From: Promethearchaeota archaeon
Lineage (GTDB): Archaea; Asgardarchaeota; Lokiarchaeia; Sigyniarchaeales; SOKP01
NCBI GenBank assembly: GCA_016930515.1
Contig: JAFGGO010000183.1
Span: 1 to 46,863 of the forward strand
Direction: 5' to 3'
DNA length: 46,863 nucleotides
Of the stretch, positions 22,339 to 45,194 are shown piece after piece. How positions within the stretch are numbered: position 1 is the stretch's first letter; the number at the start of each line of letters is the position of its first letter. A program made the translations under genes and the position numbers. The notes below the pieces were generated by a model, which was given only the letters and a program-made list of their open reading frames with translations, was not told where the DNA came from and did no database searches.

Positions 22339-22568
22339 CCATTTTTACTAAAAGAGTATATTTTTTAAATTTTTAAAAATATTTTATTTGCCAAAATAAA
22401 TCGAATATTAAATAAAAATTATTGTATTCATTTTCTTAAATCGATAGATATTTGTTCAATTGGGATTCACCATGATATTTTAAGTTCCTGTTTTTAATAA
22501 ATTATCTTTCATGTATTAAAAAATGAAAAATATATTACTTTATTTATAGAATTCTTTTATTTTACATC

Positions 22569-23408
22569 ATGACTTATTCAAATAAAGTTATATTGATTAC
22601 GGGTGCAAGTACGGGTATTGGTCGGGCTTGTACTGAGTTTTTAGCTCTTAAGGAATTCAGGATCTATGCTGGAGCGAGAAAAAAGGCTGATCTGAACGAA
22701 TTAAGCAATATCAAAAATGTTAAAGGCTTAGATATTAATGTAACTAACGAGGAAAGCGTTCAGAAAGCACTCAAATTCGTTAAAGAAGAAGGTTATGGTT
22801 TACACGCCATTGTTAACAATGCAGGTATTGCGAAGGTAGGTCCGCTCATGGATCTAAGCACTGAAACCTTCTCTGATCAGTTTAATGTAAATTTATTTGG
22901 TGTTCATAGGGTTACTAAAGCATTTTTTCCTCTCATATTAGAATCTAAGGGTAGAATTATTATGATGAGCAGCAATTCGGGATTTATATCGACCCCCTTT
23001 TTTGGACCATATTGTTCAAGTAAGTTTGCCTTGGAGGGATATGCAGATGCCCTAAGGAGGGAAGTTATGCTATACGACATTAAGGTAGTTATCGTCCAAC
23101 CAGGCAGAATCAAGACTCCTATTTGGACAAAAGGTGAAGAAACACTGCCTACATACCATGGCTCTATGTTTGAAAAAGAGGCGATGGGAGTGGGAAGTTA
23201 CGCAATTGAAAAAGGCAAGAGCGACTCTTTAAATCCCATCGAGGTTGCTAAAGTCGTTTATAAAGCTATCACGAAAAAAAAACCCAAAACCAGGTACATG
23301 ATAGTTCCTGACAAGTTCAGAAACAAGCTAATGAAAATCTTGCCAGATAAGACAATAGATAGAGTTGTAAGAAAAGAATTGGAAAAATTCAAAATTAAAG
23401 AGAGATAA
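22569..23408 (+). CDS. Short-chain dehydrogenase/reductase
   Basis: TGASTGIG, VNNAG, YCSSK (YxxxK), QPG. Confidence 0.93.
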   Translation: MTYSNKVILITGASTGIGRACTEFLALKEFRIYAGARKKADLNELSNIKNVKGLDINVTNEESVQKALKFVKEEGYGLHAIVNNAGIAKVGPLMDLSTETFSDQFNVNLFGVHRVTKAFFPLILESKGRIIMMSSNSGFISTPFFGPYCSSKFALEGYADALRREVMLYDIKVVIVQPGRIKTPIWTKGEETLPTYHGSMFEKEAMGVGSYAIEKGKSDSLNPIEVAKVVYKAITKKKPKTRYMIVPDKFRNKLMKILPDKTIDRVVRKELEKFKIKER

Positions 23409-23593
23409 ATAACCAATAAAGATTATCCTTGTTTTTATTATCAATCCTAATCGAAAATAACGATCCTCTCCCGAAGGATATTATTATACTTGGGGTGCTT
23501 CAGGCTATATTACCAAATAAGAATGGAGGAAAAGCCTTAAATACTCGATTGAACTAATATCCTCAACTCTATTAATAAAAATAGGGTGAAAAC

Positions 23594-23701
23594 ATGTCAA
23601 AAAAATTCGAGTCAAAGAAGAAAATCAAGAAAGAACCTGAAAAACACAAGGAAGAAAAGAAACCAGTTTCTTCGCCTAGTTCTGCTCCAAAAAGTCAATA
23701 A
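23594..23701 (+). CDS. 35-aa Lys-rich micropeptide
   Basis: MSKKFESKKKIKKEPEKHKEEKKPVSSPSSAPKSQ; archaeal SD GGTGA just upstream of the ATG. Confidence 0.5.
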   Translation: MSKKFESKKKIKKEPEKHKEEKKPVSSPSSAPKSQ

Positions 23702-23984
23702 AATCTTATGCATTGACTCTAGAGAAATAAAGAGCCTTCATCGCTCCGAAATTCTTTAATCCTGCTACTTACGTTATCGTCAAGGATGCTTATTATTTTT
23801 TTATTTACTCGAATTGTGGCTAATTTTCTAATATTTTAAAATAAATGCTTTTATGTAATTTTAAAAAGATAAATATTTATTTTAGTGATGAGAAGATTGA
23901 TTTTATACAATATGATGAGATTTTCCATTTCACATGAAATCGATTAATTTAATCAAGGAGTATATTCTAAAGTTAAATTAAGTC

Positions 23985-24929
23985 TTAACTTACAGGAACT
24001 CTCTTTTTGAAAATTTGCAGCACCTGTGATCCGCTAAATTTTATCCACTTCTTTAAAAAGTTCTTAAAATTAATTCCATTTCGTTTATCCACATTTAATT
24101 CTACAAAAAAATAAATTTTTGGATATTGCAATATTTTCTTGATGGTTCCAAAAAAATTTTCAAATAGAAAGCTTATCTTCCATTTGTTTTTCTGACTTTT
24201 AATTGTTTTGATGTAGGAAAAATATGCATCTTGGTCGAAAAAATCTTTAGAATTAAATATTAATGCTAAAGTGTGATAATAACTCTTTGAATGTTTAGAA
24301 TTTTTCAAATAAGGGCCATACATGTCGTCTCTCTTGTGCTTTCTTAACTCCAACCACATTTCTTCGTCTAAATGTTTAAATGCATTCACATACGATGTAT
24401 CGTCAGTAAAAAAAATGTTTTTGAAGATCCTTTCCATCCATGTTCTATGATTGGATTCTTTATCCATGTCGTGAATAAAAACAGCTTTTACAAAGGAATT
24501 CTTCATGATTCTAACCGCAAGTTTGATGGCTGCATCGTCTTTTGGGCCATCTATTAAAACGCAACATTCTCTATTTATTAATTTCGGAATGATCTTATTA
24601 GAATCTCCATAAATTAAATGAAGATTCTTATATCCAAATAAATTCTCATGAGATTGTATCGAATCTTTTGTATATTTCAGGTATTCAATACTATAAATTT
24701 CTTGATTAGAAGAATTGAAATTAGCAGCTATTATTTTAGTACTGTATCCGCTTGCTCTACCACTTTCAATAATTAACTTGACTTGAAAGTATTGAATTAT
24801 AGATACAAATAATAACATTTCACTATTGCAAATTCCCTTCAATTCATAACCGATATTAGCAACATTCTTTTCAAAAATAGGAAGATATTTTTGACAGATT
24901 TCTATTATATCGTCATTTTTTAATTCCAT
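23985..24929 (-). CDS. Putative class I SAM-dependent methyltransferase
   Basis: IIESGRASGYST, YSIE, GDS, VLIDGPK, FIHD. Confidence 0.7.
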   Translation of the reverse strand: MELKNDDIIEICQKYLPIFEKNVANIGYELKGICNSEMLLFVSIIQYFQVKLIIESGRASGYSTKIIAANFNSSNQEIYSIEYLKYTKDSIQSHENLFGYKNLHLIYGDSNKIIPKLINRECCVLIDGPKDDAAIKLAVRIMKNSFVKAVFIHDMDKESNHRTWMERIFKNIFFTDDTSYVNAFKHLDEEMWLELRKHKRDDMYGPYLKNSKHSKSYYHTLALIFNSKDFFDQDAYFSYIKTIKSQKNKWKISFLFENFFGTIKKILQYPKIYFFVELNVDKRNGINFKNFLKKWIKFSGSQVLQIFKKRVPVS

Positions 24930-25026: not shown

Positions 25027-25133
25027 TGGCGGGCTATGAGGGATATTCGCCTCCATCCTTGTTGGATGGAAGTATCGAACCCCCGACCGTCAGGTTAAGA
25101 GCCTGCTGCGCTACCTGCCTGCGCTAATAGCCC
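25027..25133 (-). tRNA. tRNA-Lys(CUU) with a 30-nt BHB intron at non-canonical position 59/60 (intron 25044-25073); CCA encoded
   Basis: Acceptor GGGCTAT/ATAGCCC, anticodon loop CT-CTT-AA, T-arm GGGGG TTCG AT^...^T CCCTC. BHB helix TTCG/CGAA, bulges ATA and TAT, intron stem CTTCCATCC/GGATGGAGG. Confidence 0.92.
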
Positions 25134-25167: not shown

Positions 25168-25280
25168 CGCAGATGGAGGGACTTGAACCCCCGAGCGCTT
25201 GCGCGCACTGGCTTTCGTGCGTTCGCGGTTCTTTCGATGCGTGCCTCAAGGCCAGCGTCTTACCACTAGGCTACATCTGC
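25168..25280 (-). tRNA. tRNA-Ser(UGA), class II, with a ~31-nt intron at 37/38 (25214-25244); CCA not encoded
   Basis: Acceptor GCAGATG/CATCTGC, discriminator G73, anticodon stem CTGGC/GCCAG, variable arm GCGC-GCAA-GCGC, T-loop TTCAAGT. Relaxed BHB: CTTG/CACG with one mismatch. Confidence 0.85.
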
Positions 25281-25643: not shown

Positions 25644-26138
25644 GTGAAAATTAGCACTAATAGCGCAGAAAATTTTAGGTATTTAATACCCCAGAAAATA
25701 TTTAACGAGATTACCGAGAAAGCCAAGGAGGAAATACCCTACATCATCCACGGCTGGATTTTTGCTGACCGAAAGGAAAATTTTGGCATCGTCAGCAAGT
25801 TTATCATGAATCCCGACTTGCGAAAGACCAAAGTACACACCAAGCCGAGAAGTTGGATGCGATACAAGAAATCCAAGATTATCAACATGCGAAAATTCAA
25901 GCAGGAATTGGGAGTGGATATCGCCTGGCAATTTCACACGCATCCGTCGGGAAACGAAAAATTGCACAACATCGACAAGCGTATCTTGAAATACTTGAGC
26001 AACGGCGTCATGATCATCGTGGTTCCCGAAGTACCCGAAAAACAACAAAAACCGCATCTCGTTGGATGGTATTACGATAAACGATACACGAAAAAACCGA
26101 TCATCGAAAAAATGGTTTTTGAAATCATTTCCGATTAA
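25644..26138 (+). CDS. JAB/MPN (Mov34-like) domain protein, atypical active site
   Basis: PYIIHGWIF and FHTHPSG...LHNID, matching the JAMM HxHx10D spacing. Confidence 0.7.
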   Translation: MKISTNSAENFRYLIPQKIFNEITEKAKEEIPYIIHGWIFADRKENFGIVSKFIMNPDLRKTKVHTKPRSWMRYKKSKIINMRKFKQELGVDIAWQFHTHPSGNEKLHNIDKRILKYLSNGVMIIVVPEVPEKQQKPHLVGWYYDKRYTKKPIIEKMVFEIISD

Positions 26139-26224
26139 TTTTTTGTCCTTTCGTTTTCTTTTCTTTTTTATACTAAGATGCGACATGAAAAAATATTAAA
26201 GTCTCGATTCGTTATCGTGTCTGA

Positions 26225-29200
26225 TCATTTCTTAGCTTCAAATTTTTTCGTTAACTTTTTCAACTCGTCCTTGGACAATTTCTTCAATTCTTCCATTCTT
26301 TTTTTAGCTTGATACAAGTTAGTCGCAGTTTCCAGGTAACCAAGCTTGACGTCTTTCTTGTCAAAGAGAGAATCCTCGTCCTCGCTCTCAAAACCAACGA
26401 GAGAACCTCTTCGGAGGTTTTTTGTTATTGATATGATGTGATCAATTTCTCCAGATTGATCCGTCGTTTCAAGTACGTAAATGTGGAATAAACCTTCTTT
26501 CTTGATGGAATCAATGCGAATATTCGCCTCGCGTAGTAAATCCACAAATCTTTTCCGTTCCTGAGCCCTTTTATAATTAGTCGTGGTGCCAAACTTTTTT
26601 ATCTCAGAAGAGAAGTAAGATTTAGCCCTTTCGTAACACTCAAGGGCCTTGTCGAATTCGTCAAGGTGTTCGTAGCAAGTTCCTAAATACATGTCAACAT
26701 CGTCTTTCATCGCTGCTTTTTTCATGGATAATCGCAATATCTCCAGTGCTTTCTCGTAATGCTCGAACTTGATAAGTATTTTACCGTACGAGTGGTAGTG
26801 TTCTCCCTTGAATAATTCCGTGAGCTCGATCGCGTTTTCAATCGCTTTAATGGCCTCGTGTTCCATGTCGTTTTCTGCGAAATATCGTGCTTTTGCGTCG
26901 AAGATATCTGCTTTTGTATTGTTATAACTTGAACTGGAATGATCGCTTTCGGTAAAACGGTGTTTATTATTTTCAAGAACCTTGAAGGCCTCGTCGAACT
27001 CTTTCAATTGGATCAAGATCAAGATTTTCAAGTAGTAAGACTCGAAATCTTCGGGGTTCGTCTCGATTGCCTTGTTAACGGTTTCGAGGGCAACGTCGTA
27101 TCGCTTCAGGTAATGCAGCATGTCGGCTTTCTCGTGATATATTCCCGTGTAATTCGCTCCCTTTTCAAGAGCTTCTTTAATTCCTTCTAAAGCATCAGGA
27201 TACCTGCCGAGCGTGCTCAATATCAAGTTTCTCAATTCGTAAAAATCAAGGTAGTTCGGAAATAGGTCAAATCCTTGGTTAACAACATCTAAAGCCTCTT
27301 CGGAACGACCGAGAAAATAAAGGATTCGTGCCTTAGTGTAATAATTTTCAGGGACGTTCGATCCGTAGGTCATTGCAGTATTTAACGCGTCAAGGGCGTC
27401 AGCAAGTCTGTCACTTTCAAACAAGATCGAAGATTTAATACGGTAATATTTCGATTCCTTGTAATCCAGCTTGATTGCGGCGTTAATTTGTCGCAATGCA
27501 TCCTTGTATTTCTTTTCCTTGAAATATGCAATTGCCTTGTATTGATAAGCTATTGCTGCAGGTGACGGGGTCGATTTAATGAGGTTTTCTAAAAGATCTA
27601 GTGCTTCTTGATTCTTGTCCAGCAATAGCAAAATCCTAGCCTTATGAACTCGAAAATTGTAATGCGGAATGATTTCGGGGTCATGATTTATGGAGGAATG
27701 CATTGCTTCAGCAGGATATTTAGGAAATTCTTCAATCGCTTGATCGACAATTATTAATGCTTCTTGTAAAGAGTTTAATCCAATTAAGGCAAAAATTTGA
27801 TATTCTACTAATTTGGGATTCTTTAATTCCAAGTACTGAGAGTTAAAAAATTGGTATTTTTTTACAGTACTCAAGGCTCTCTCGTATTCTCTGTCTTTAA
27901 GCGAGTAATATATGTAATTTTCAAAATAATCGTCCATCATTTCTGTCATCTCTATGGGATACGGTCCTGAATACGCTAATGTAAAGACTTCAAAAGCAAG
28001 GTCGTATTCTTCACTCAAGATTAATACTTCAGAAGCGTGAGGAAATATCTCTGAAAAACCGTGATCTTCATATTCTAAGTCAGATTCGTATTCTTTTATC
28101 AAGTCGAAAATAGCAACAAATTCCTGCATGTCATTTAGGATATTTATTTTTATAATAATAAATTCGTCAAACGACATGATGCTATTAGCCTCGTCAATAG
28201 CTTCCAAGGCTTCTTTATATCTCTTTAATCCGAGAAAAACCTCTGCTTTTAAACCAAAATACAAGGGATTTAAATATCGTTCCATTTCCATTGAAATTTT
28301 ATCTAATATTTCAAGAGCAGCATCATATTGTCTTTTGTTTTTTAACGCATCTGCTTTTTCAAAAAGAAATGTAGTAATATTTGATTCGTTTAAATCCCTT
28401 CGCTTTATTATTTTATCAACAAAATCTATGATGAAATCATCGTATCCGTTGCCTTTAATAAACCAAATTATTTGTACTAGATCTGAGATATCATAACTGT
28501 TAATCTCTTTATCAAACCCAATTTTCATTGCTAACTCAAAATTTATTCTTGCATCATTTATTCGATTAAAAAATGTCCTTAAAATATTGCCTTTTAAAAG
28601 GTAGTATTTAGCTTTTCCTTCGATTTCAATTGCTTTATTAATTACCATTAATGCATCTTCGGGTCTGCTATTTTGTTTTAATAATTGTTCTGCACGATCA
28701 TATAATTCTTCGCCATATTTCGACCTTGAAATTAGATTCTTAGATAACTTTTCAGCTTCATCCAGTCTACCTAAAATAATTAAAAATCTCAATTTTTTTT
28801 GGTATAAATCCTTACCATCATCAAATTTTAAAGCCATCTCAACAGCGTTTAACCCTTTCTCAGCAATTTCTACCTCTTTTGGATTTCCCCCTCTTATAAA
28901 ATCGTCTAATTCTCTTAACAAAATTTCAGCTTTCAATCGATAAAAATTATATCCATTTGGTATTGGATCGATTTCTATGCCTTTTTCAATAACATTAAGG
29001 GCATTATCTTTGTCTAACAAGTATAAGCCTAATATCTTTGCCTTCCAATAATAAAATTTAGCGTTGTTTTCCGTTGTCATGAGCTTGTCGATTTCCAATA
29101 TAGCGTTCTTATAATCTTGTTTCTCAATTAAATTCCAAATTAGTTCTGTTTTATCGTCTTTTAAATCATTATTAAAATCTATAGCTAATTTCTCGCCCTT

Positions 29201-30358
29201 ATTATATGACATATAATTACTATATATGTTAAAATATTCTCTAAAAGTGTCGAGAGACTCTTTATCTATAGTGTTCTCCAGAAAAAAAGTATTTTTTTCT
29301 GAAAGTGATTGAAATTTAAATAGATTTAGATATTTTTCAAAGAGAGAACTTTCTTGAGTTATTTCTTCTCGGTACATCATCTTTTTCGGTTGTGTCAGTT
29401 CGATTGTCTTTGCAATTTCTTGATATTCTGGCTTTCCTTGATTGATATTTTGTGTCATGACTTTTCGAAAGTTTTCAATTAGGGGATAAAGGGCGTCCCC
29501 TAGCTTTTTATCGAACAAGCGATTTTTTTCCGTAAGAGTTAGAATGATTTCTTTATATGCATTATCTAATTCTTCTCGATTGAGATCGATTTTCCCAAGA
29601 CTTGCCTTTTGAGCTAATTTTATCAATTTAGAATCGACGTGGAGTTGAAAATGCCTGCCTAAATCGCTTCCTTCGCTAAAATAAAGGTTTAGATCCTCTG
29701 ATTTTAAAACTAATTTGTGAAATCGAATCCCATACTCTCCTTTTTCTAATCGTTCAAGGAACAGTTGCAATTCGGTTCTTGAAATAATCTTTTCGGAAAT
29801 TAGAAAATCCTCTATGGAAATCGAATATTTTGGATAGAGATTGGGGTGATTATAAGCTAAAAATAACAAAACGGTTTCGAATTTTTTTATATCTGGAATT
29901 AACCCCGATACTAGATTGAAAGGTATTGACGATGTGATGTTAACATATTCGAGCATTAATTTATCACTCGTGATATTCCTATCCTTGAAAAAAGGTTTGA
30001 GTTGGTTAATTACATTTCGTCCCATTTTAATTTCGCGATCGAATATTGTCTCAGAATCAATATCGTATTCCTCCAATCTTTTTGTAAGGTAGATCTCTCC
30101 TGCGGGAGTTATGCGATACTTGACTTTCCTTCTATTAGATTTGTCGATCTCGGTGTCTACAAATCCATTTTCAGTTAGTTTTCCGAAATACTTGTAAAAC
30201 GTGGTTTTACGAAATCCCTCGGGCTCTCCAAACTCCTTAATGAAGAAAGACGGTCCTAAAGGAACACTACTTTGACTCAGAGCGTATAATACAATGTCTT
30301 CGACTTCTCCTTTTCCTTTATCCCAGATCTTTTCGTGAACTAACTCCTTTAGGCTCAT
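26225..30358 (-). CDS. 1377-aa winged-helix + TPR array + degenerate GIY-YIG-like C-terminal protein
   Basis: N-terminal KTTFYKYFGKLTENGFV...KVKYRITPAG (wHTH); many TPRs; C-terminal HIYVLE...ITKNLRR...VKLGYLE...AKKRMEELKKLSKDE. Confidence 0.8.
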   Translation of the reverse strand: MSLKELVHEKIWDKGKGEVEDIVLYALSQSSVPLGPSFFIKEFGEPEGFRKTTFYKYFGKLTENGFVDTEIDKSNRRKVKYRITPAGEIYLTKRLEEYDIDSETIFDREIKMGRNVINQLKPFFKDRNITSDKLMLEYVNITSSIPFNLVSGLIPDIKKFETVLLFLAYNHPNLYPKYSISIEDFLISEKIISRTELQLFLERLEKGEYGIRFHKLVLKSEDLNLYFSEGSDLGRHFQLHVDSKLIKLAQKASLGKIDLNREELDNAYKEIILTLTEKNRLFDKKLGDALYPLIENFRKVMTQNINQGKPEYQEIAKTIELTQPKKMMYREEITQESSLFEKYLNLFKFQSLSEKNTFFLENTIDKESLDTFREYFNIYSNYMSYNKGEKLAIDFNNDLKDDKTELIWNLIEKQDYKNAILEIDKLMTTENNAKFYYWKAKILGLYLLDKDNALNVIEKGIEIDPIPNGYNFYRLKAEILLRELDDFIRGGNPKEVEIAEKGLNAVEMALKFDDGKDLYQKKLRFLIILGRLDEAEKLSKNLISRSKYGEELYDRAEQLLKQNSRPEDALMVINKAIEIEGKAKYYLLKGNILRTFFNRINDARINFELAMKIGFDKEINSYDISDLVQIIWFIKGNGYDDFIIDFVDKIIKRRDLNESNITTFLFEKADALKNKRQYDAALEILDKISMEMERYLNPLYFGLKAEVFLGLKRYKEALEAIDEANSIMSFDEFIIIKINILNDMQEFVAIFDLIKEYESDLEYEDHGFSEIFPHASEVLILSEEYDLAFEVFTLAYSGPYPIEMTEMMDDYFENYIYYSLKDREYERALSTVKKYQFFNSQYLELKNPKLVEYQIFALIGLNSLQEALIIVDQAIEEFPKYPAEAMHSSINHDPEIIPHYNFRVHKARILLLLDKNQEALDLLENLIKSTPSPAAIAYQYKAIAYFKEKKYKDALRQINAAIKLDYKESKYYRIKSSILFESDRLADALDALNTAMTYGSNVPENYYTKARILYFLGRSEEALDVVNQGFDLFPNYLDFYELRNLILSTLGRYPDALEGIKEALEKGANYTGIYHEKADMLHYLKRYDVALETVNKAIETNPEDFESYYLKILILIQLKEFDEAFKVLENNKHRFTESDHSSSSYNNTKADIFDAKARYFAENDMEHEAIKAIENAIELTELFKGEHYHSYGKILIKFEHYEKALEILRLSMKKAAMKDDVDMYLGTCYEHLDEFDKALECYERAKSYFSSEIKKFGTTTNYKRAQERKRFVDLLREANIRIDSIKKEGLFHIYVLETTDQSGEIDHIISITKNLRRGSLVGFESEDEDSLFDKKDVKLGYLETATNLYQAKKRMEELKKLSKDELKKLTKKFEAKK

Positions 30359-30400
30359 GATTAAAATAAATGCGGATTCGTATTTAAGCGTTTGCTAATT

Positions 30401-30414
30401 GCGAACCAGTTCGC
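30401..30414. promoter_or_regulatory. Palindromic operator candidate GCGAAC-CA-GTTCGC in the divergent promoter
   Basis: Perfect 6-bp inverted repeat in the 115-bp gap between the wHTH-TPR gene and the NYN gene. Confidence 0.5.
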
Positions 30415-30473
30415 GAAATATGAACTAAAATAGAATGGTTTTCTATATTAATTTATAGGTTGGTGAAAAAAAA

Positions 30474-31082
30474 ATGTGCCTGGAAAATAATCTTGAAAGA
30501 ATCCTTGGAATAAATGAATTAGAGATTTTTATTGACGTTAACAATGTCGTCCATAATCGACATAATATGGAACAAAACCCGCAACTTGGGGATTTTTTGA
30601 TAATGATGGATCGTTTAATTAACGATTTGGGATTCCAACCAGCAAAAATCATTTCGATTTGCGATCCTGGTTTGAAATATCATATTGATAAGCCTAACGA
30701 ATTTGAAGCCCTGATTAAAGAAGGGGTTATCAGAGAGGCCCCAAAAGTGGCTGACGAGTTCATCTTGTCGTTCGCATTGCGCAAGAAATATTGCCTTATC
30801 GTAAGCAACGATAAATTTCGTGAGTATTTAGATCAATTACCGAGCAAGGATTGGTTAAAACAACGCAGGGTAACATTTATGTTCTTGGGCAACGATGTTG
30901 TCTTGAGTCCAAATTTTGATGAAAAAAAAATGAAAAAGAATATCCAAGGAGAAAAACCAATGAGTAAAGGAGACGATGTTAATTGTTCGGAAGAACCGAT
31001 AGAAAAGAGCTTTGAAAAATCTACATTGGAAGTATTAAAAAATTCAATAGAACGAGTAGAGGGTGAATTTGATCTTTTTTGA
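30474..31082 (+). CDS. NYN/PIN-domain ribonuclease (Zc3h12a/Regnase-like)
   Basis: IFIDVNNVVH, ICDPGLKYHID, ADEFIL, IVSNDKFREY: acidic active-site residues present. Confidence 0.82.
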   Translation: MCLENNLERILGINELEIFIDVNNVVHNRHNMEQNPQLGDFLIMMDRLINDLGFQPAKIISICDPGLKYHIDKPNEFEALIKEGVIREAPKVADEFILSFALRKKYCLIVSNDKFREYLDQLPSKDWLKQRRVTFMFLGNDVVLSPNFDEKKMKKNIQGEKPMSKGDDVNCSEEPIEKSFEKSTLEVLKNSIERVEGEFDLF

Positions 31083-31153
31083 TCACTCAAGTTATTTCAC
31101 TTTATATCTAACAGAAAATTTAAAACAAAAAAATAAGGAGGTAAACAAAAAAA

Positions 31154-33493
31154 ATGGAAAAATCCAAAAGAACGGTAAGCGGGTTGCTCGACAAGGGCTA
31201 CGGCAGGAGAGCGCTCAAGTTAGGCGGCGTCAAGGGAAGGGTCCTTCACGAGGCACAGGCTCGCTACTACCGTCAAGTGTTTAAAAGGCCCGAGCGGCGA
31301 AGCAAATTGAGCCAAAGGGTCTTTAGCAAGTGGTTGACCGAGGAAAAAGTCAACGTGCTTGCCGACCTCGAGAAAAGTCCCGATTCCGCCCTGTATCACG
31401 AGGACGCCAAGCTTCTTCTCGAGGCTGCCTTGAAAGCGATCAGGTACGCCTCGAAGCGGATCGCCGCTAAAAACGGGGGCGTGGTCGTTCCTGAAGACGT
31501 GGAACGGGAAGCGTTCGGAGGAGAGCTCTGGATCGAAGAGGGAACGACCGGCAAGATCGGGGGAATAAAAATATCGGGCAGGACTGATTACCTGATCGAG
31601 CTTGATCTCGCATCCTTTGTCGTTCGCGATTTCAAGTCGTTCGGAAAGGGAGATGTTGCCGATCCAACCGACCCCGAATCGCCGCTTCACAGGGAGTTCA
31701 TGCAGGCGTGCCTTTACGCCGTCCTGTTCGAGAAGTCTCGAAGACAGGCCTGCGTTGCGATTCAGGTCCAATATTTTCCTTGCGAGATCGTCAGCCACGA
31801 GTTCACCACGGAATTGCGCCAACGAGCCATGAAGTACGCAAAGGACCAAGCTTTCGAGGGATACGACGGCGTGTCCTTTAACTATTCGCCTTCCGACGGA
31901 CCGGAAAGCGACGACGACGATGGCGGCGAGACCGCGGGAGTAATGCCGGCGATAAAACAATCGAGCGAAGGCGCAAGTGGGGTGTCTGAAGATCGAGGAA
32001 GCGACGCCGCCTTCCATCCAAGACAGAAAGACGACCTGGGATTCTTGAGCACGATCAAGGGAAAACCCCTGGAGTTGGTGCTCGGAGGGGACAACAAGAT
32101 GGAAGGATACTTGTTCCCGAGCGAGGCTCACAGGATTCGGGAAGGGCATTGCGTGGTGGTGGAAGACCAGGACACGGCCGTTCGAATCCTGTGCGTCGTG
32201 AAAAAGATCGAGTGCTCGGAAGACCAATTTCCGGGAGAAACTTCGAGCCACAAGGAGGAAAACTACAAGATAGCGCTCGTTCCCGAGGGGCAGTTCGGAC
32301 CGGAAGGATACCAGGAATTGCGACCCCAGACCGTCATCGGGGGCAGGATCAAGGTGGCCACGCAGCACGAGTATTGCGCCTACAAGCGTGTTCCCGTCAA
32401 CGGCATGCCCATCGGCACGGTTCAAGGGCTTAACGAGGGAATTCCCTATCCCCTCGATAGGTCGATCGTGTACCAGAGCGTGTTCGTGAGCGGCCAACAA
32501 GGCACGGGAAAGACAAGTTTCGTGAAATGTTTCGTTCTTGGCACGGCCAGCCAAAAGGATGCGCCCGCGCAGGTAATCCTCGATCACGAGGGTGAATACG
32601 AGAATCTCGTGGACATTCCCACCAACGAGCGTTCGAGAACGGTCCTCGAAAAGATTGGGGCCAAGGGGCTCGATCCGGACAAGTTCAAGGTAATCACGCT
32701 TGGACCACGCTCCGGGCGCTGCCTTTCGCTCGAGGCGATCGATTCGTTCGATCTTCCAAACTTTCTACACGAGCTCACGCCGATTTCTCACGACACGTTC
32801 GAAGCGATCGTGTACGATCTGAAACAAGAGCACGACAAGGAGGCGTTTTTGTTTCCGGAACTCAAATCGCTCGTGCTAAGCCGCCTGGAAAGCTCAAAAT
32901 ACGGGGCGACCAGCGCCACGCAGGGTGCCATCAAGAGAGCGCTCAATTCGGTGGCTCTCAAGATATTTGATGTTCCTGGATCAGAACCGATCGACGTCGA
33001 TTTCATGCTCGAGCCGGGACGCGTGACCGTCGTGAACACGTACAACCTGAGAGGAGACCTTCAAAGGATCGTGGGACTGTACTTGCTGGCGGTCCTTCAC
33101 GGTCGCGCTCTCAAGGGCAAGAAGCGCGTCAAGACGATCCTCTACCTGGACGAGATCCAGCGACTCGTTCCGAAGTCGAACTCGCAGGCAGAAACCGAGT
33201 ATTTGAGGAGGATCATAAAATATCTCGACGAGGTGGTCCACAGGGGTAGGAAGCGCGATTACGGCGTTTTCTTCGCAACGCAGAGCGTCGGTGACGTCAA
33301 GAAGGACATCATCGATCTGTGCAACACCAAGTTCTTCATGCAGGCGCAGGGAAGCGGGGCTGCTCGCGTGAAGGATTACTTTACCAACAAGGCGGACTTG
33401 GAACGGTTAAAAAAGCTTCCGAAGGGACACGCCTTCGTCACCAGCGAGGGCAAGCACGAGCCCGTGGAGATCAAGTTTCCTTTCGTCGATTGA
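31154..33493 (+). CDS. PD-(D/E)xK nuclease fused to a HerA/FtsK-family ATPase
   Basis: ISGRTDYL...VRDFKS...QACLY nuclease; acidic linker; beta-rich barrel-like region; Walker A GQQGTGKT, LDHEGEY, Walker B LYLDEIQ, GRK...FATQ. Confidence 0.85.
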   Translation: MEKSKRTVSGLLDKGYGRRALKLGGVKGRVLHEAQARYYRQVFKRPERRSKLSQRVFSKWLTEEKVNVLADLEKSPDSALYHEDAKLLLEAALKAIRYASKRIAAKNGGVVVPEDVEREAFGGELWIEEGTTGKIGGIKISGRTDYLIELDLASFVVRDFKSFGKGDVADPTDPESPLHREFMQACLYAVLFEKSRRQACVAIQVQYFPCEIVSHEFTTELRQRAMKYAKDQAFEGYDGVSFNYSPSDGPESDDDDGGETAGVMPAIKQSSEGASGVSEDRGSDAAFHPRQKDDLGFLSTIKGKPLELVLGGDNKMEGYLFPSEAHRIREGHCVVVEDQDTAVRILCVVKKIECSEDQFPGETSSHKEENYKIALVPEGQFGPEGYQELRPQTVIGGRIKVATQHEYCAYKRVPVNGMPIGTVQGLNEGIPYPLDRSIVYQSVFVSGQQGTGKTSFVKCFVLGTASQKDAPAQVILDHEGEYENLVDIPTNERSRTVLEKIGAKGLDPDKFKVITLGPRSGRCLSLEAIDSFDLPNFLHELTPISHDTFEAIVYDLKQEHDKEAFLFPELKSLVLSRLESSKYGATSATQGAIKRALNSVALKIFDVPGSEPIDVDFMLEPGRVTVVNTYNLRGDLQRIVGLYLLAVLHGRALKGKKRVKTILYLDEIQRLVPKSNSQAETEYLRRIIKYLDEVVHRGRKRDYGVFFATQSVGDVKKDIIDLCNTKFFMQAQGSGAARVKDYFTNKADLERLKKLPKGHAFVTSEGKHEPVEIKFPFVD

Positions 33494-33849
33494 TCGGAAT
33501 ATTCAGCGTCATTTTTTTTCGATTAAAATTTTTTTTTTTTTTATTTTCCATTTTTAACCCGTTTCCCTCATTTAGAGGGCGAAAGGGAAAAAAAAAGAGC
33601 AACATCGAAGTCGCTTTTGCCGCAATAAGGGCAAAAAAAAGGGGCGATTAAGAGGGTTTTGGGGATGCCAATATAGATTGATCGTTATCTCTCGACAAAA
33701 AAGCGGCCAAAAGGGTCTTCGACAATCGTTATACAAGTATCGTTCGAAATTTATAAATAAAAAATCCACGGTTTTTTTCGCATTCTTTTTGTTTTTATAG
33801 GTTGGGCGTAAATGAAGGTAACAACCTTAAAAAACCGTCTCGATGCAAT

Positions 33850-35607
33850 ATGCAAAAAATCGTGAGCGAAAAAACGTTCGAGATAAACGAGCACCTGTCG
33901 GTTGCCCTTCGGCAAGGCGAAACGATCGTCTTGGTGTGCGGCAGGCCGTTCCGGCAGTGCAAGTACCTGGCCTTTAGCTTTCCCGCAGAACAAGCAAGAT
34001 CGTACGATTCGGTCCAGTCCATTGACGATCTGGAGAGGCTCGACCGCTCGAAGCAATACGGAACCTTGGATATCGATCCCGAGACCGAGTTCTGGGGGCA
34101 CTGTTCAAACTTGCAAGCGTGGGCCGAGCGCGGCTACGACACGCGCCTTCTCCACCGCAACCTGGCCTTTCCGCTCCTCAAGAAACTTTCCGAAGCGGGC
34201 GATACCGCTGCCAAAAGGGCGTTCAAGGACGAGGTGGCGCGCAGGTTTTCGAGCGGGTCGCTTTCGGTGGTGGAGTATCTCTTGGAAGAGGGATATCTCG
34301 AGATGTTTAAGCCCGAAGAGCTCGACTCTCTATTCGCGAACTTCGAATACGGTCCCATCATGGCTCTCGAGCTGGACGAGCGGTTGTTCTGCCTGGAACG
34401 GCTTGCAAAAACGGGCGCCCCTGCCGCCATGATCGAGTTCAAGCAGGAGCTCTTTCGAGTCCTGGACGAGGGAAGCAAGGAGGACGTCAAGTTGCTGTTC
34501 GATCGGGCGTTTACCGTCTATTTCTCCAGGGACCAGATCGTGGGCCTTGCTCCCGCGCTCGGTCTTGCTAGCAACGCTCTCCTCACCTGGGGTTGCGCCA
34601 AGGGAGCGCCATGGGACTTTTACTGGTGCGATACGGGCACGGAAGAGCGCTTGGGTCTTGCCACCTGGGGGGCGATCAATCGGGCACCATCCGGCTTTTT
34701 TCGTCGTTTCGAGACCGTCCTTGAGAACATCGAGCTTTCCAAGACGGCCGTTCGCCTTGGCGCTTCCAGATGCTTTTTCGAGCGCCTTCCTGAGTTGTTG
34801 ACCAATAAGAGCCTTGCCAGGTGGGGGGCTTTCCACCGAGCACCGAAGGCTTTTTACGAGGATTTTGCAGTCATCTCGACCAATCCTGCCCTTGCCAAGT
34901 GGGGCGTTCTCAATCGAGTTGGCCCGTCCTTCTGGACCAATTTTTCCACCCTTTCCGAAAAGATGGACTATCACGGGTGGAAGCGGGACCCTTCCGACTT
35001 GGGAGGCGCCTTGCGAGGGTACGGGGCGATCTTGGGAGAAAAAAAGCGCCTTGACGAGGCAATGGGGCTGTATCTCGACGCAATCCTCGTTCACGAATGG
35101 CTCGACGATTTGGAAGAGTTGGCCCTTGACCTGAACCACGTGGGCGTCTTGATGGTAGAAAAGGGCGACCTTGACGAGGCGCTCAAGTATCACCGGTGGG
35201 CGCTCGAACTCCACCAGGGGCAGGGCAACCTGACCTTGGAGGCCCTGGACCTCGAGAACCTCGGGGACGTCTTGGTTACCAAGCGAGATGGCGCTGGAGC
35301 CCGAACGTGGTTCGAAAAAGCGCTTGCCGTCCTCGAGCGAACGGGGGATCTCTCCCGAAAGGGCAAGTGCCAGTTCAAGCTGGCGTCGATATCGTTTGAA
35401 GAGGGAAAAATAGACGAGGCCATTGAACGGTGCCAAGAAAGTCTTAAAATTTCCGAACGGTTAGGCGACCTTGCTGGTGTCAAGACAAACCTCAAGTGCA
35501 TTGGCATTGCCCTGGAGCGAAAGGGCGAGTTCGAGCAGGCACAAATTTACCACGAACGCCTGGAGGAGCTTCTCGAAGAGGGAGAAGAATTTTCGATCAA
35601 ATTATAA
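33850..35607 (+). CDS. Loki-type N-terminal domain + five 26-aa repeats + TPR protein
   Basis: FRQCKYL...EFWGHCSNLQAW...LLHRNLAFPLLKKL N-domain; repeats at 34579-34968; C-terminal TPRs. ORF is open from 33802. Confidence 0.8.
   Translation: MQKIVSEKTFEINEHLSVALRQGETIVLVCGRPFRQCKYLAFSFPAEQARSYDSVQSIDDLERLDRSKQYGTLDIDPETEFWGHCSNLQAWAERGYDTRLLHRNLAFPLLKKLSEAGDTAAKRAFKDEVARRFSSGSLSVVEYLLEEGYLEMFKPEELDSLFANFEYGPIMALELDERLFCLERLAKTGAPAAMIEFKQELFRVLDEGSKEDVKLLFDRAFTVYFSRDQIVGLAPALGLASNALLTWGCAKGAPWDFYWCDTGTEERLGLATWGAINRAPSGFFRRFETVLENIELSKTAVRLGASRCFFERLPELLTNKSLARWGAFHRAPKAFYEDFAVISTNPALAKWGVLNRVGPSFWTNFSTLSEKMDYHGWKRDPSDLGGALRGYGAILGEKKRLDEAMGLYLDAILVHEWLDDLEELALDLNHVGVLMVEKGDLDEALKYHRWALELHQGQGNLTLEALDLENLGDVLVTKRDGAGARTWFEKALAVLERTGDLSRKGKCQFKLASISFEEGKIDEAIERCQESLKISERLGDLAGVKTNLKCIGIALERKGEFEQAQIYHERLEELLEEGEEFSIKL
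34579..34968 (+). repeat. Five tandem 26-aa protein repeats, consensus LAxWGxxxRAPxxFxxxF
   Basis: Units begin LLTWG, LATWG, LSKTA, LARWG, LAKWG at exact 78-nt spacing. Confidence 0.75.
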
Positions 35608-35731
35608 TCGAATTGACGATACTCTTTTCCTGATAGAAGCTAAAAAATCCCGCTCCTGACAAAAACCAAGGAGTTTAAATCGTAAAAAAAGTAGTAGTAA
35701 CGTGAAAACAAAAAACAAAAAAAGGTAAACC

Positions 35732-36184
35732 ATGATGGGATACATTATCGTGGCACGGGACGAGAACGAAAACCGCATTGCCTCGTTCGAAGGACCTGCC
35801 GGAATATTCAAAACACTTCAAACCACGGGGTACGATTGGTTCGGGTATCTCAACGCCTGGGAGTGCGATGGCGGTGCGTCCGGAACGGGCGTGAGAAAGA
35901 CGATTGCCTTGAAGGATGTGAAAACTGCGCTCGAACGACTGGTCTTGCAATGGGAAAAGGGAACCATGAAAGACCAACTCGAAAGGAAAACAAGATTGCA
36001 CGCTTTATCGGACGACGCTTTCCATCAAGGAATCAACTTTTCCGATCTTGTCCTGCAAAAAAGCCTCGAGGGTGCGTTTTTATCGGCTTTAGATCTCGTG
36101 CCCGAGCTGTTAGGCTTCATGAACGGCGTCGTTAAATGGTGCGAAACTAATTCAAAAAAGGAAGTGGTGATCGATTTTGGGTGA
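35732..36184 (+). CDS. Hypothetical protein
   Basis: 150 aa ORF with AAGGT SD-like sequence upstream. Confidence 0.65.
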   Translation: MMGYIIVARDENENRIASFEGPAGIFKTLQTTGYDWFGYLNAWECDGGASGTGVRKTIALKDVKTALERLVLQWEKGTMKDQLERKTRLHALSDDAFHQGINFSDLVLQKSLEGAFLSALDLVPELLGFMNGVVKWCETNSKKEVVIDFG

Positions 36185-36195
36185 ACTTGCGAAGG

Positions 36196-39100: not shown

Positions 39101-39387
39101 TGTCCCGTGGTAAAATGCAAGAAAGATGCCAATCGCCTGTTATTCAAGTAAGATACCGGAAGCCTGAGGGTGCTTTTAAGACTCTTTAACGCCGCAGCGT
39201 TGTCGCCGGATCGCAACAGGCACGCGCCTCCCAGCGCGAGAAACATCGCCTTGACGATCGGGAGAAAACCTTCGGAGGCTCGCGACCCAATGTCGCACAT
39301 CAAGCTTGCCTCGGTGAATTTTTTCTGCTCTATCAAGTCGAAAGCGTTTTTCATCAATTCGATTATTTTTGCCTGTTCTGAATGCAT
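36196..39387 (-). CDS. TPR + C-terminal leucine-rich-repeat protein
   Basis: Several TPR blocks; LRRs LVLRKNELAELP, LSAERNALTRLP, LDLDHNQF, LSDNP. Confidence 0.85.
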   Translation of the reverse strand: MHSEQAKIIELMKNAFDLIEQKKFTEASLMCDIGSRASEGFLPIVKAMFLALGGACLLRSGDNAAALKSLKSTLRLPVSYLNNRRLASFLHFTTGQAWLGAKNYKKAIKSFLTAHYRKEHPRILAWLAVSHLMKGNRSKALEAFESAKKIDLRYGDAQFFPLGALFEQDSGQKNVEALNEAISSGYGLDSTENLELKEIFLAPLGVKINAIRDSFFKIKEKILECHGRGMKKFSNGEFEESITIFDEGLNAIPREERDAGLPLIASKGLAFLATERYQGALECFQEAKRMVLNHPQHPNFKQIRAEVSFNQGQAWLGLEDVNEAKACLKECLKINPNHASALAHLGRALSLEGNHDEAMDLYEKSLLLDPKAETTHYFKAKTLFALKQYEQALDAINRAVVSIPATEYIELRKEILDELDMSHPGGLKEWKINVGSEGTNIDNVKVAAFSPKDDVTRDYTGREFFEKKFHENQAKEMLENAREKEIQQLLVKGKEHVERDEYDKASEIFTECLSIDENHAEALSLKGWARHKMGNLTDAFKLYELALDRVPINKEALASLVLFYVDLDRFEAAHDAIVEGLALWPEDERFKKLEKNLESKSGRVYDDKHAFYKGNLEKSGNEDYDAVNYFRHQRLMNQLQELRQKTVVNTITDKFESLGIDMTGFGEKVAREGLSIKTMVDAISDSILKNAPSATGSIRRSTPEEMAEKMKKLKQITQTPPRATAPPGGFKDPLKSVKDLVKQKVVRVLNDDFLENKQHTSLEDLEIAVTVHRARNDNEKELECALELLKRSPDTSRYWFFKARALNDLKRPVDALLSLDKSLTILSNSEESLELRKSILSSVHQAQLEEYQSKSTFTPEIREEELVTFKEARIPKKEASVLERIEQDTGKQFKLVEDIRPRPEAYSVKVEEIEHLEFAVKGNRITDLGLINCGLKKVPEGVKVFSMLNVLVLRKNELAELPEFVGDFEFLWNLSAERNALTRLPDSMNKLKNLMILDLDHNQFKTLSPAFLEMPNLRVVTLSDNPVAIVQDQESKNILERLKQKGTRVSPFQSVLPSIFDNE

Positions 39388-39514
39388 GGTTTGGTAACTC
39401 GTTTGATTTTTTTATATGGATATTGTCGCATTGCAATTAAATCTTGGTCATTTCTATTTTTTTTTGGTTCTATCGATTTTCGCGCTTGCATGAGTCTTCT
39501 CCTTGAATTATTAT

Positions 39515-43633: not shown

Positions 43634-43701
43634 CGATCAACTTGTTCTTTAACAATAAAATAATAAGAGCGTGTTTTTAAAAATCTAATGTAGTGAAAAA
43701 A

Positions 43702-44330: not shown

Positions 44331-44381
44331 GGTTGTATTAAAAGAAAAAAAAGACCAAGAAAACATGGAGTTGCTAAGATT

Positions 44382-45170: not shown

Positions 45171-45194
45171 GCGATCAGGCCTCCATTTAAGATT

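What the first reader, a model, noticed from the sequence alone, without database searches (positions are those of the whole stretch)
25644..33493. Candidate undescribed defence or stress module: JAB + wHTH-TPR-GIY-YIG-like regulator, divergent from NYN RNase + PD-(D/E)xK-HerA
Seen: a 1377-aa wHTH/TPR protein is transcribed divergently across 115 bp, containing a palindrome, from a two-gene unit encoding an intact NYN RNase and a nuclease-HerA fusion. A JAB gene converges on its 3' end. Established: HerA paired with an effector (Sir2-HerA, DUF4297-HerA) forms anti-phage systems; TPR arrays act as sensors; JAB proteins accompany CBASS and ubiquitin-like systems. No nurA, mre11 or rad50 is nearby, so this is not the core repair operon. 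Inference: a sensor-regulated RNase plus DNase/translocase immune module.
Basis: partly seen in the sequence, partly recalled or inferred. Interest (0 to 1): 0.75.

Follow-up and report, generated by a model that had tools for sequence, protein, structure and literature searches.

The report
Asgard nuclease-HerA candidate defence cassette
An Asgard archaeon carries a rare three-gene cassette (a DNA-binding TPR protein, an RNase, and a DNA-cutting enzyme fused to a HerA DNA motor) that is probably an uncharacterised antiviral module of a known general type; the neighbouring JAB gene is an unrelated housekeeping gene.

Summary
The three-gene core recurs in about 10 independent Promethearchaeota loci: wHTH-TPR (26225-30358, -), divergent across 115 bp from NYN RNase (30474-31082) and a Cas4-like-nuclease/HerA fusion (31154-33493).

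The fusion is the invariant part. It is sporadic (8 of 400 genomes in the phylum). In other loci it pairs with defence-type partners: DpdB plus a BrxP-like reductase, a mad3/PtuA-type ABC ATPase, or a pAgo. This supports a defence role by association only.

NYN is optional. NYN and the unrelated small protein that replaces it share one unique 20-residue C-terminal tail, probably a docking peptide for the fusion.

The GC-rich intergenic palindrome is unique in the genome and conserved in the closest locus, so it is probably the operator.

Two claims are not supported. The JAB-like gene is a core gene, 73-95% conserved across Asgard archaea, and never accompanies the module. The "GIY-YIG-like" tail is specific to this window and matches no family.

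Unexplained: the HerA gene alone is GC-rich (GC3 0.70, against 0.35 for NYN and 0.22-0.33 for all homologues).

Verdict: a new variant of the known HerA-nuclease / "HerA-FtsK capture" kind. This scan had noted the same fusion only on this same stretch.

The parts
26225..30358 (-). wHTH-TPR protein (1377 aa). Two N-terminal winged-helix units and a helical stalk (aa 1-306 = nt 29441-30358), a long TPR/helical-repeat array (to about aa 1288), and a window-specific ~90-aa C-terminal extension (nt ~26228-26497). Predicted operator-binding regulator or sensor.
   Evidence: TPR Pfam hits. PadR hits below or at threshold. AF2 model and PadR/MarR fold matches. Homologues sit divergent from the HerA fusion in about 17 loci. 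C-terminal extension absent from homologues, with no family hit.
30359..30473 (.). 115-bp divergent promoter region. Holds the GC-rich palindrome GCGAAC-CA-GTTCGC (30401-30414) followed by TATGAAC. Candidate operator.
   Evidence: Sequence. Conserved in L048: 77% identity over the spacer, while the wHTH N-domains are only 41-47% identical. Unique in the genome, and 0 of 2000 shuffles give a GC-rich 6-nt palindrome. Other loci have their own dyad or direct repeats at the equivalent place.
30474..31082 (+). NYN (Zc3h12a-like, PIN-fold) RNase, 202 aa. NYN core aa 1-148, variable linker, conserved C-terminal tail aa 183-202 (nt 31020-31079).
   Evidence: PF11977 at 48.5 bits. Catalytic residues invariant in 13 homologues. 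Found immediately upstream of the fusion in about 18 loci.
31020..31079 (+). C-terminal tail STLEVLKNSIERVEGEFDLF. Predicted docking peptide shared by NYN proteins and the unrelated c4 proteins.
   Evidence: All 16 NYN and all 8 c4 proteins end in this motif; none of the other roughly 456 ORFs in the loci does. HHalign finds only this segment in common (probability 91%, E 1e-6). Single occurrence in 8 million six-frame residues of the genome.
31154..33493 (+). Cas4/RecB-like PD-(D/E)xK nuclease (aa 1-235, nt 31154-31858), acidic disordered linker (aa 236-292), HAS-type beta-barrel (aa 293-403), HerA/FtsK-class ATPase (aa 404-779). Predicted self-contained hexameric DNA translocase-nuclease. 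This is the invariant core of the cassette.
   Evidence: Pfam PDDEXK_1 and DUF87. PADLOC mad8 2e-18 and HerA 1e-14. AF2 pLDDT 79.5. Foldseek top hits are all HerA. VIA: DndH C-domain Z 27.7, HerA 4d2i Z 26.4, Cas4 Z 11.8. Invariant E117, D145, (D/E)159-x-K161, Q184xxxY188, Walker A and B, and Arg cluster.
25644..26138 (+). JAB/MPN-like 164-aa ORF. A flanking Asgard core gene, NOT part of the cassette.
   Evidence: 73-95% identical across Promethearchaeota, Hodarchaeota and Thorarchaeota. Present in 14 of 15 relatives. Absent from all module loci. Syntenic with the tRNAs and the RHH-HisKA-REC genes in relatives that lack the module.

Best explanation
This is an Asgard-lineage anti-invader (defence) cassette of the HerA-plus-nuclease kind.

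Shown: the invariant component is one polypeptide that joins an intact Cas4/RecB-type nuclease, through a disordered linker, to a HerA barrel and ATPase.

Inferred: like HerA with NurA or DUF4297, it forms a hexameric ring that pumps DNA by ATP hydrolysis. Because the nuclease is tethered on the barrel face, the ring feeds that DNA to its own nucleases, so it acts as a cis version of the two-protein HerA-nuclease machines.

Shown: the NYN RNase is an optional add-on. It carries a 20-residue C-terminal tail that it shares only with the unrelated small protein that replaces it in other loci.

Inferred: the tail docks these interchangeable accessories onto the fusion, adding RNA cleavage to DNA degradation.

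Shown: the divergent wHTH-TPR protein comes from a large Loki-type family, and a GC-rich, locus-specific, conserved palindrome lies in the shared promoter.

Inferred: its winged helices bind that operator and keep the operon repressed or poised. The fast-evolving TPR array senses an infection-linked protein or signal, then releases expression or recruits the effector.

JAB is not involved.
For: The core layout recurs in about 10 loci with the full wHTH-TPR <-> NYN > fusion arrangement. In others the partner is swapped.

The fusion family has about 70 clusters at 39-55% identity, and the named ones are Promethearchaeota or Heimdall MAGs. Catalytic residues of nuclease, ATPase and NYN are invariant.

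Fold: true HerA with a HAS barrel, closest to HerA of the NurA, DUF4297 and SIR2 complexes and to the DndH C-domain and TdpAB; the N-domain is Cas4/AdnA/MGME1-like.

Distribution is patchy: 8 of 400 genomes in the phylum, and none of the other five same-genus genomes searched. The region downstream of JAB is non-syntenic with the same-genus genome G005.

Defence-type neighbours occur in independent architectures: DpdB 7e-29, BrxP-like 2e-51, a TGT-like gene, a mad3/PtuA/GajA-like ABC ATPase 3e-26, and pAgo 5e-36. The best defence-library hit is MADS mad8. MAD7/MAD8 is described as an ATPase-nuclease module needed for defence (PMC13662399).

Tail evidence. Operator evidence.

Published frame: 'HerA/FtsK capture' systems combine fast-evolving wHTH domains, nucleases and HerA/FtsK (PMC10853773, PMC12839542).
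Against: There is no experimental or expression evidence. The defence role rests on guilt by association, and the window's own neighbours (TPR and LRR proteins, unknowns) are not recognised defence genes.

The wHTH-TPR family has hundreds of paralogues that mostly neighbour other genes, so its link to the module is not exclusive. NYN is absent from 6-7 loci with close HerA relatives, so it is not essential.

The HerA gene's GC and amino-acid make-up differ sharply from NYN's. The two were not inherited together for long, and compatibility of this particular pair is untested.

The fold resemblance to repair HerA and to conjugative VirB4/TrwB ATPases is about as strong as to defence HerAs.
Confidence: 0.55

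Rival explanations
1. A specialised DNA repair or recombination machine. It would be a paralogue of the archaeal HerA-NurA end-resection complex in which a RecB/AddB-type nuclease replaces NurA in cis, with the wHTH-TPR protein as a damage-responsive regulator.
For: Top structural matches include HerA-NurA complexes (9x1m, 4d2i, 7f6d). The N-domain resembles the AdnA, Cas4 and MGME1 end-processing nucleases.
Against: Present in only 8 of 400 genomes of the phylum, and in none of the other five same-genus genomes searched. The genome has a separate NurA (C139) and seven other DUF87 genes. No mre11, rad50 or nurA lies adjacent. The context varies and often includes DpdB, pAgo or PtuA-like genes. 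It lies in a non-syntenic region.
Confidence: 0.12
2. A function of a mobile genetic element (integrated plasmid or provirus). It would be a DNA pump-nuclease for transfer, packaging, partition or exclusion, carried in an island. The wHTH protein would be the element's repressor.
For: The ATPase core matches VirB4, TrwB, FtsK and a viral packaging NTPase nearly as well as it matches HerA. There are weak PHROG hits to a terminase-like ATPase C-terminus. The region downstream of JAB and the tRNAs is non-syntenic and compositionally mosaic.
Against: No integrase, replication, capsid, conjugation or membrane components were detected in the window's variable region. No relative was found in IMG/VR viral contigs. 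The HAS barrel places it in the HerA clade proper, not with the coupling proteins. The neighbourhoods differ between loci, where a conserved element backbone would be expected.
Confidence: 0.12
3. The first reader's four-gene system, in which the JAB peptidase works with the wHTH-TPR regulator, NYN and HerA (for example a ubiquitin-like or CBASS-like regulated module).
For: Physical adjacency only: JAB converges on the TPR gene with an 86-bp gap. JAB proteins accompany some defence systems (general knowledge).
Against: No JAB homologue was found in any of about 80 loci. JAB is 73-95% conserved across Asgard classes and present in 14 of 15 relatives, of which only G000 carries the fusion. In relatives it sits beside the same tRNAs and RHH-HisKA-REC genes without the module.
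Confidence: 0.02
4. The NYN-HerA junction in this window is an artefact (a chimeric contig from an AT-rich and a GC-rich organism), or the locus is a recently scrambled, non-functional mosaic.
For: The GC content switches sharply at the HerA start codon. The HerA gene has GC3 0.70 and a GC-type amino-acid make-up, unlike NYN and unlike all 70 relatives. C58 is the most GC-mosaic contig of the genome.
Against: An independently built Logan contig of 11,877 nt spans 28943-40819 with no differences and even depth, although it comes from the probable source run. A different study's metagenome holds 100%-identical fragments of both the AT-rich NYN gene and the GC-rich genes. The gene order equals the conserved order, all ORFs and motifs are intact, and the spacers keep native-like start contexts.
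Confidence: 0.07

Closest known systems
HerA-DUF4297 (Hailong-type) and SIR2-HerA (Nezha) anti-phage complexes (PMC11291478, PMC11472057, PMC11514289)
   Same: A HerA hexameric ATPase with a HAS barrel is coupled to an effector enzyme. In HerA-DUF4297 the effector is a PD-(D/E)xK-type (Cap4-like) nuclease. These are among the top structural matches (8xav, 9c1m, 8wod, 8j4u).
   Different: Here the nuclease is Cas4/RecB-type and is fused in cis to the N-terminus of HerA. There is no DUF4297 or SIR2. Extras are a NYN RNase with a docking-like tail and a divergent wHTH-TPR gene. The hosts are archaeal (Asgard). Sequence identity is only 12-16%, with no profile hit to any PDB sequence.
Archaeal HerA-NurA end-resection complex
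   Same: Same HerA fold, including the barrel. The nuclease is placed on the barrel face of a DNA-pumping ring (9x1m, 4d2i, 7f6d).
   Different: The nuclease is unrelated (RecB/Cas4 fold, not NurA). There is no mre11-rad50 operon. Distribution is sporadic, and the genome keeps a separate NurA.
'HerA/FtsK capture' counter-invader systems, including DndH of DndFGH (PMC10853773; PMC12839542)
   Same: The concept is the same: a restriction-type nuclease plus a HerA/FtsK translocase plus fast-evolving wHTH proteins. The best match of the ATPase core is the DndH C-domain (7es4, Z 27.7). Some family members neighbour DpdB, PAPS-reductase or TGT modification genes.
   Different: None of the DndH-specific N-terminal domains is present, and there is no DndF or DndG. 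The barrel marks it as HerA proper. The NYN, TPR and Asgard versions are not mentioned in those papers.
MADS MAD7-MAD8 ATPase-nuclease module (PMC13662399)
   Same: The best PADLOC hit of the ATPase half is mad8 (2e-18, covering 30-298 of 314 profile positions). MAD7/MAD8 is described as an ATPase-nuclease module required for defence. Type A' loci also carry a mad3-like ABC ATPase.
   Different: No mad1, 2, 4, 5 or 6 homologues or methyltransferase were detected in the window. The nuclease and ATPase are fused, and the hosts are archaeal.
wHTH regulators of defence operons such as BrxR/CapW (from general knowledge; not tested here)
   Same: A divergently transcribed winged-helix protein with a palindromic operator in the shared promoter of an immune operon.
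   Different: PadR-like double wHTH, not wHTH-WYL. It is fused to a >1000-aa TPR array and belongs to a Loki-specific family with 5 to 14 or more copies per genome.

Membership tests
HerA clade of HerA/FtsK ATPases | RecA-like P-loop core with Walker A and B and an arginine finger, preceded by a HAS beta-barrel | tested here: met
   DUF87 36 bits against a cut-off of 23.2. Foldseek E 2e-20 to HerA chains. VIA alignment spans 293-779 on 4d2i, Z 26.4. GQQGTGKT, LDE and HRGRKR are invariant.
HerA clade of HerA/FtsK ATPases | Hexameric ring that translocates DNA | not testable with these tools
   Only a monomer model was made. Oligomeric state and activity need biochemistry.
HerA-NurA repair system | Adjacent NurA (and usually mre11-rad50), with near-universal presence in the lineage | tested here: not met
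   The only NurA hit is on contig C139. No such genes were found among the scanned ORFs flanking the module from 20.4 kb to the contig end. The fusion is in 8 of 400 genomes.
HerA-DUF4297 / SIR2-HerA defence systems | A separate DUF4297 or SIR2 effector gene next to HerA | tested here: not met
   No such Pfam or PADLOC hits in the window's genes. The anti-phage HerA models hit only weakly: PDLC04105 at 9e-5 and NF042943 at 19.8 bits against a cut-off of 800.
DndFGH (DndH) | DndH N-terminal domains (inactive SWI2/SNF2, DAM-like, REase) plus DndF and DndG partners | tested here: not met
   The PADLOC DndH hit covers only the P-loop (E 0.004, aa 421-482). No DndF or DndG hits. Structurally only the C-domain matches.
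MADS | Eight-gene mad1-mad8 operon with a methyltransferase | tested here: not met
   Only the mad8-like ATPase region matches. No other mad hits appear among the eight window proteins scanned.
Cas4/RecB-family PD-(D/E)xK nucleases | D...(D/E)xK catalytic core and the QxxxY motif | tested here: met
   PDDEXK_1 39.7 bits against a cut-off of 22. E117, D145, D159-F-K161 and Q184xxxY188 are present and conserved. Cas4 7mi4 Z 11.8.
Cas4/RecB-family PD-(D/E)xK nucleases | Four-cysteine Fe-S cluster of Cas4/AddB | not tested
   Only C200 (invariant) and C186 (near invariant) were noticed in this domain. The cysteine set was not examined.
NYN (Zc3h12a-like) RNases | PIN-like fold with the conserved acidic residues (D..N, D, D/E, SxD) | tested here: met
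   PF11977 48.5 bits against a cut-off of 23. D21, N24, D64, D72, D94, E95 and S111-N112-D113 are invariant in 13 sequences.
JAB/MPN+ (JAMM) metallopeptidases | E...HxHx7Sx2D zinc site, and a match to the family profile | tested here: inconclusive
   The motif reads H-T-H-P-x6-H-x2-D, with His where Ser is expected. No Pfam, NCBIfam or PADLOC hit even at E 5. Atlas neighbours are JAB and Prok-JAB clusters at 0.94-0.96. JGI names homologues RPN8/RPN11.
GIY-YIG nucleases | GIY...YIG motifs with catalytic Arg and Glu, and a profile match | tested here: not met
   No Pfam hit at E <= 5 for aa 1280-1377. The segment is absent from all homologues. The sequence reads HIY...IIS.
PadR-type winged-helix regulators | wHTH with a beta-hairpin wing, a profile match, and dimeric binding to a palindromic operator | tested here: inconclusive
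   PadR 19-21 bits, below the cut-off of 27, in the window; 27.5 bits in the G020 homologue. The best fold matches are PadR/MarR but E is 0.04-0.2. A conserved palindrome is present. DNA binding is untested.

The most novel reading that the evidence does not exclude
A modular Asgard immune platform. A single-chain Cas4-HerA motor-nuclease recruits interchangeable accessory proteins (the NYN RNase, or the small c4 protein) through one shared C-terminal docking peptide. It is wired to interchangeable sensors (wHTH-TPR, PtuA/mad3-like ABC ATPase, DpdB-type modification module, pAgo). Whole components can be swapped in place between lineages of very different GC content, as the GC-rich HerA behind an AT-rich NYN suggests.
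Probability: 0.3. Interest if true: 0.75.

Novelty: new variant of a known kind. Interest (0 to 1): 0.55.

Why it matters
HerA-based immune machines (SIR2-HerA, HerA-DUF4297, DndH-type capture systems) have been worked out in bacteria. The two Asgard defensome surveys checked here do not mention HerA or NYN in their main text.

If this cassette is immune, it adds an archaeal, single-chain version of the motor-plus-nuclease principle. It also offers a concrete, testable recruitment mechanism: a 20-residue tail shared by unrelated accessory proteins. And it links a large Loki-specific wHTH-TPR family to the control of variable gene cassettes.

It also offers a simple biochemical target: one protein with nuclease and ATPase activities, a peptide partner and a defined operator. 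The gene-confined GC anomaly is a separate puzzle about how such cassettes are exchanged.

Tried and rejected
Neighbourhoods therefore came from the search for related loci and the genome search.

Complex prediction on NYN plus the fusion gave 'no answer' (score 0.00, controls not run). This is neither for nor against binding. Two earlier submissions failed because the machine was busy.

A profile search of A1 against PDB sequences gave 0 hits. Only fold searches placed the protein.

A scan of IMG/VR viral contigs found no relative.

ARAGORN found no tRNA, but Rfam found two at 25063-25133 and 25168-25280.

HHalign of the wHTH N-domain against the N-termini of the SMC-like (c11) and DpdB-like (c3) partners found no shared domain.

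Pfam, PHROGs and PADLOC gave nothing for the c4 protein, the C-terminal extension of the TPR protein, ORF150, ORF316, ORF368 or ORF314.

No direct or inverted repeats of 12 nt or more were found at the edges of the GC-rich block. There is only a shared A8-ATG-G start context.

I considered that the tail might bind the TPR array, since TPRs often bind C-terminal peptides. I judged this less likely. Tail-bearing proteins occur with DpdB or ABC-ATPase partners where no TPR gene was seen, and TPR partners occur without any tail-bearing protein. The only constant neighbour of the tail is the fusion.

The Cas4 phylogenomics paper and the two Asgard defensome papers do not mention this architecture in their main text.


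Full report
**What is there.** The window is contig C58 of a 4.0-Mb, 94%-complete Asgard (Promethearchaeota-type) MAG.

- The 1377-aa protein (26225-30358, -) has a strong TPR array. Its N-terminus gives sub-threshold PadR and winged-helix hits. The G020 homologue reaches the PadR cut-off. An AF2 model of residues 1-400 (pLDDT 73) shows two winged-helix units and a helical stalk. Its best PDB matches are all PadR/MarR regulators, at weak E-values.
- Across a 115-bp spacer lie an NYN RNase (PF11977) and a 779-aa protein with PDDEXK_1 and DUF87/HerA domains.
- The AF2 model of that protein (pLDDT 79.5) has four parts: nuclease (aa ~30-235), acidic disordered linker (236-292), beta-barrel (293-403) and ATPase (404-779).
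- Foldseek returns only HerA chains at the top, from HerA-NurA, HerA-DUF4297 and SIR2-HerA complexes (E about 1e-17 to 2e-20, 12-16% identity).
- An independent aligner gives DndH C-domain Z 27.7, VirB4 Z 26.5, HerA 4d2i Z 26.4 (including the barrel) and TdpAB Z 22.3. For the N-domain it gives Cas4 Z 11.8, AdnA Z 11.6 and MGME1 Z 11.2.
- All catalytic residues are present here and conserved in the family.

**Is the gene set conserved?** Yes for three of the four genes. The fusion defines a family of about 70 clusters at 39-55% identity, and the named ones come from Promethearchaeota or Heimdall MAGs. I fetched 6 genome loci and 74 metagenome loci plus further genome loci, and clustered all ORFs. 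Immediately upstream of the fusion there is one of the following:

- an NYN homologue (about 18 loci, including relatives at only 35% HerA identity);
- an unrelated 111-144-aa protein, 'c4' (9 loci, counting one partial, L029);
- nothing (6-7 loci).

The divergent partner is one of these:

- a wHTH-TPR homologue (about 17 loci);
- an SMC-like ABC ATPase that matches mad3, PtuA, GajA and LmuB models (4 loci);
- a DpdB homologue next to a BrxP/SspD-like PAPS reductase, with a TGT-like gene and a DUF5591 gene nearby (8-9 loci).

In one locus a pAgo gene directly precedes NYN and the fusion. In the HerA tree the DpdB-type loci form one clade, but NYN-plus, NYN-minus, TPR-type and ABC-type loci interleave. 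Partners are therefore exchanged often. Downstream genes vary.

**JAB and GIY-YIG.** No JAB homologue occurs in any module locus. The JAB-like ORF is 73-95% identical across Promethearchaeota, Hodarchaeota and Thorarchaeota. It is present in 14 of 15 relatives. In relatives that lack the module it sits next to the same tRNAs and RHH-HisKA-REC paralogues. It is a core gene at the edge of a variable region. Its JAB nature is plausible, but no profile library recognises it. The 'GIY-YIG-like' segment is a ~90-aa extension found only in this window's protein, with no family hit at E <= 5.

**Not housekeeping; in a variable region.** The fusion is in 8 of 400 genomes of the phylum, and in none of the other five genomes of the same genus that were searched. 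The genome has a separate NurA and seven other DUF87 genes. In same-genus G005 the genes downstream of JAB are collinear with a different contig of this genome (C126:45-59 kb). So window 26.2-46.8 kb is an insertion or rearrangement relative to that genome. No integrase, replication, capsid or conjugation genes were detected there. No relative was found in viral contigs.

**A shared tail.** All 16 NYN proteins and all 8 c4 proteins end with [ST]T[LI](D/E)[VI]L..I...(E/K)G.(F/L).L(F/Y)-COOH. None of the other roughly 456 ORFs in the loci does. Profile-profile comparison finds only these 26 columns in common (probability 91%, E 1e-6). The motif occurs once in 8 million six-frame residues of this genome. 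The only constant neighbour of tail-bearing proteins is the fusion, so I infer that the tail docks interchangeable accessories onto it. A complex prediction gave no verdict, so binding remains an inference.

**Operator.** The spacer holds GCGAAC-CA-GTTCGC (30401-30414). Any 6-nt palindrome arises in 34% of shuffles, so the palindrome alone is weak evidence. But a GC-rich one arose in 0 of 2000 shuffles, and this one is unique in the genome. It is conserved, with its flanks including TATGAAC, in L048, the locus with the closest wHTH-TPR protein. The spacers are 77% identical, while the wHTH N-domains are 41-47% identical. Other loci show their own dyads or direct repeats at the same place. This fits an operator that co-evolves with its winged helix. 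The wHTH N-domain family is very large: 109 of 135 genomes of the taxonomic family, often with 5 to 14 or more copies. Only 3 of 29 sampled members neighbour NYN or HerA. The protein is therefore one branch of a general Loki regulator or sensor family, not a dedicated subunit.

**Wider relatives.** An exhaustive profile search found 67 representatives at E <= 1e-30. Some distant, longer proteins (795-1027 aa) keep the Cas4/PDDEXK plus DUF87 architecture. One is from a Pseudomonadota MAG and is named 'Dna2/Cas4 domain-containing protein'. Others have only the barrel and ATPase, or an unrecognised N-terminus. The fusion architecture is therefore rare but not unique to Asgard archaea. I found no paper describing it. 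The closest concept is the 'HerA/FtsK capture' systems of PMC10853773 and PMC12839542, which mention no Asgard, NYN or TPR versions. The Cas4 phylogenomics paper does not mention HerA or DUF87. MADS MAD7/MAD8 is described as an ATPase-nuclease module needed for defence, and mad8 is the best PADLOC match.

**Unexplained GC anomaly.**
- The HerA gene has GC 0.556 and GC3 0.70. NYN has 0.35 and 0.35. All 26 full-length homologous genes have GC 0.32-0.37 and GC3 0.22-0.33.
- Its protein is shifted too. GARP/FYMINK content is 0.26/0.24 against 0.185 +/- 0.012 and 0.362 +/- 0.019 in 70 relatives. It sits on a long branch of the tree.
- The switch falls at the start codon. A GC-rich block runs to 40465 with AT-rich spacers. 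The genes at both edges keep the same native-looking A8-ATG-G start context as NYN.
- A Logan contig built independently (though from the probable source run) spans 28943-40819 without a difference. An unrelated metagenome has 100%-identical fragments of both the AT-rich and the GC-rich parts. Mis-assembly is therefore unlikely.
- I read this as replacement of the HerA gene in place by a version from a GC-rich lineage. The mechanism is unknown.

**Verdict.** The module is best filed as a new variant of the HerA-nuclease / HerA-FtsK-capture kind of defence system. It is supported by conservation, patchy distribution and defence-type neighbours, and has no functional evidence so far.

Noticed in passing
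window 31154-40465 (also 20368-22338 and 42812-46361): Gene-confined GC mosaic. Coding sequences have GC 0.47-0.57 (GC3 up to 0.73), separated by AT-rich spacers with native-like A8-ATG starts, in a genome of 35% GC. C58 is the genome's most extreme contig (22% of its 1-kb windows exceed 0.47 GC). Supported as real by an independent contig and a second metagenome.
   Followed up: partly
window 29441-30358; loci L124-L152: The double-wHTH N-domain of the TPR protein defines a very large paralogous family in this taxonomic family: 109 of 135 genomes, often 5 to 14 or more copies, with proteins of about 565, 640, 840 or 1000 aa. Most members are divergent from small unknown genes (for example a 68-, 123- and 125-aa trio). 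What they control is unknown.
   Followed up: partly
window 25644-26138: The JAB/MPN-like 164-aa protein is 73-95% identical across several Asgard classes, yet no Pfam, NCBIfam or PADLOC profile recognises it. Its zinc motif has His where JAMM enzymes have Ser. It appears to be a conserved Asgard core protein of unknown role.
   Followed up: partly
They lie between the conserved RHH-HisKA-REC genes and JAB, at the edge of the variable region.
   Followed up: partly
window 20368-24929: About 4.6 kb that same-genus relatives lack between the RHH-HisKA-REC genes and the tRNAs. It holds a GC-rich Oxidored_FMN + Pyr_redox_2 oxidoreductase (656 aa), a short-chain dehydrogenase and a 314-aa unknown.
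   Followed up: no
L056:2117-6630: A metagenome contig with pAgo (Piwi; PADLOC PprPIWI 5e-36), then NYN, then the Cas4-HerA fusion, all on one strand. This may be a pAgo-associated version of the cassette.
   Followed up: partly
L021:2239-12863 and L023 (Promethearchaeota Loki_b32): Type C loci combine DpdB, a BrxP/SspD-like PAPS reductase with a 4Fe-4S domain, two unknown proteins, the c4 protein, the fusion, a divergent TGT-like gene and a DUF5591 gene. This looks like a Dpd- or Dnd-like DNA-modification island in Loki archaea.
   Followed up: partly
L018:2324-7769 (G020) and L076: Downstream of the fusion in G020 lie an 1133-aa protein kinase fused to an Upf1-like SF1 helicase (AAA_11/AAA_12) and a 680-aa unknown. 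The pair recurs in L076.
   Followed up: no
window 39515-40465; L018:18753-19925; G000 C137:67332-68258: The GC-rich ORF316 (no family hit) has a 38%-identical homologue about 4.6 kb from the G020 module and a 51%-identical paralogue elsewhere in this genome. The link to the module may be loose, or it may be coincidence.
   Followed up: no
L041:1875-6140: The SMC-like divergent partner in one locus is a 1421-aa protein. It joins a mad3/PtuA-like ABC ATPase to a C-terminal DUF87/HerA-like P-loop, so that cassette has a second HerA-type domain.
   Followed up: no
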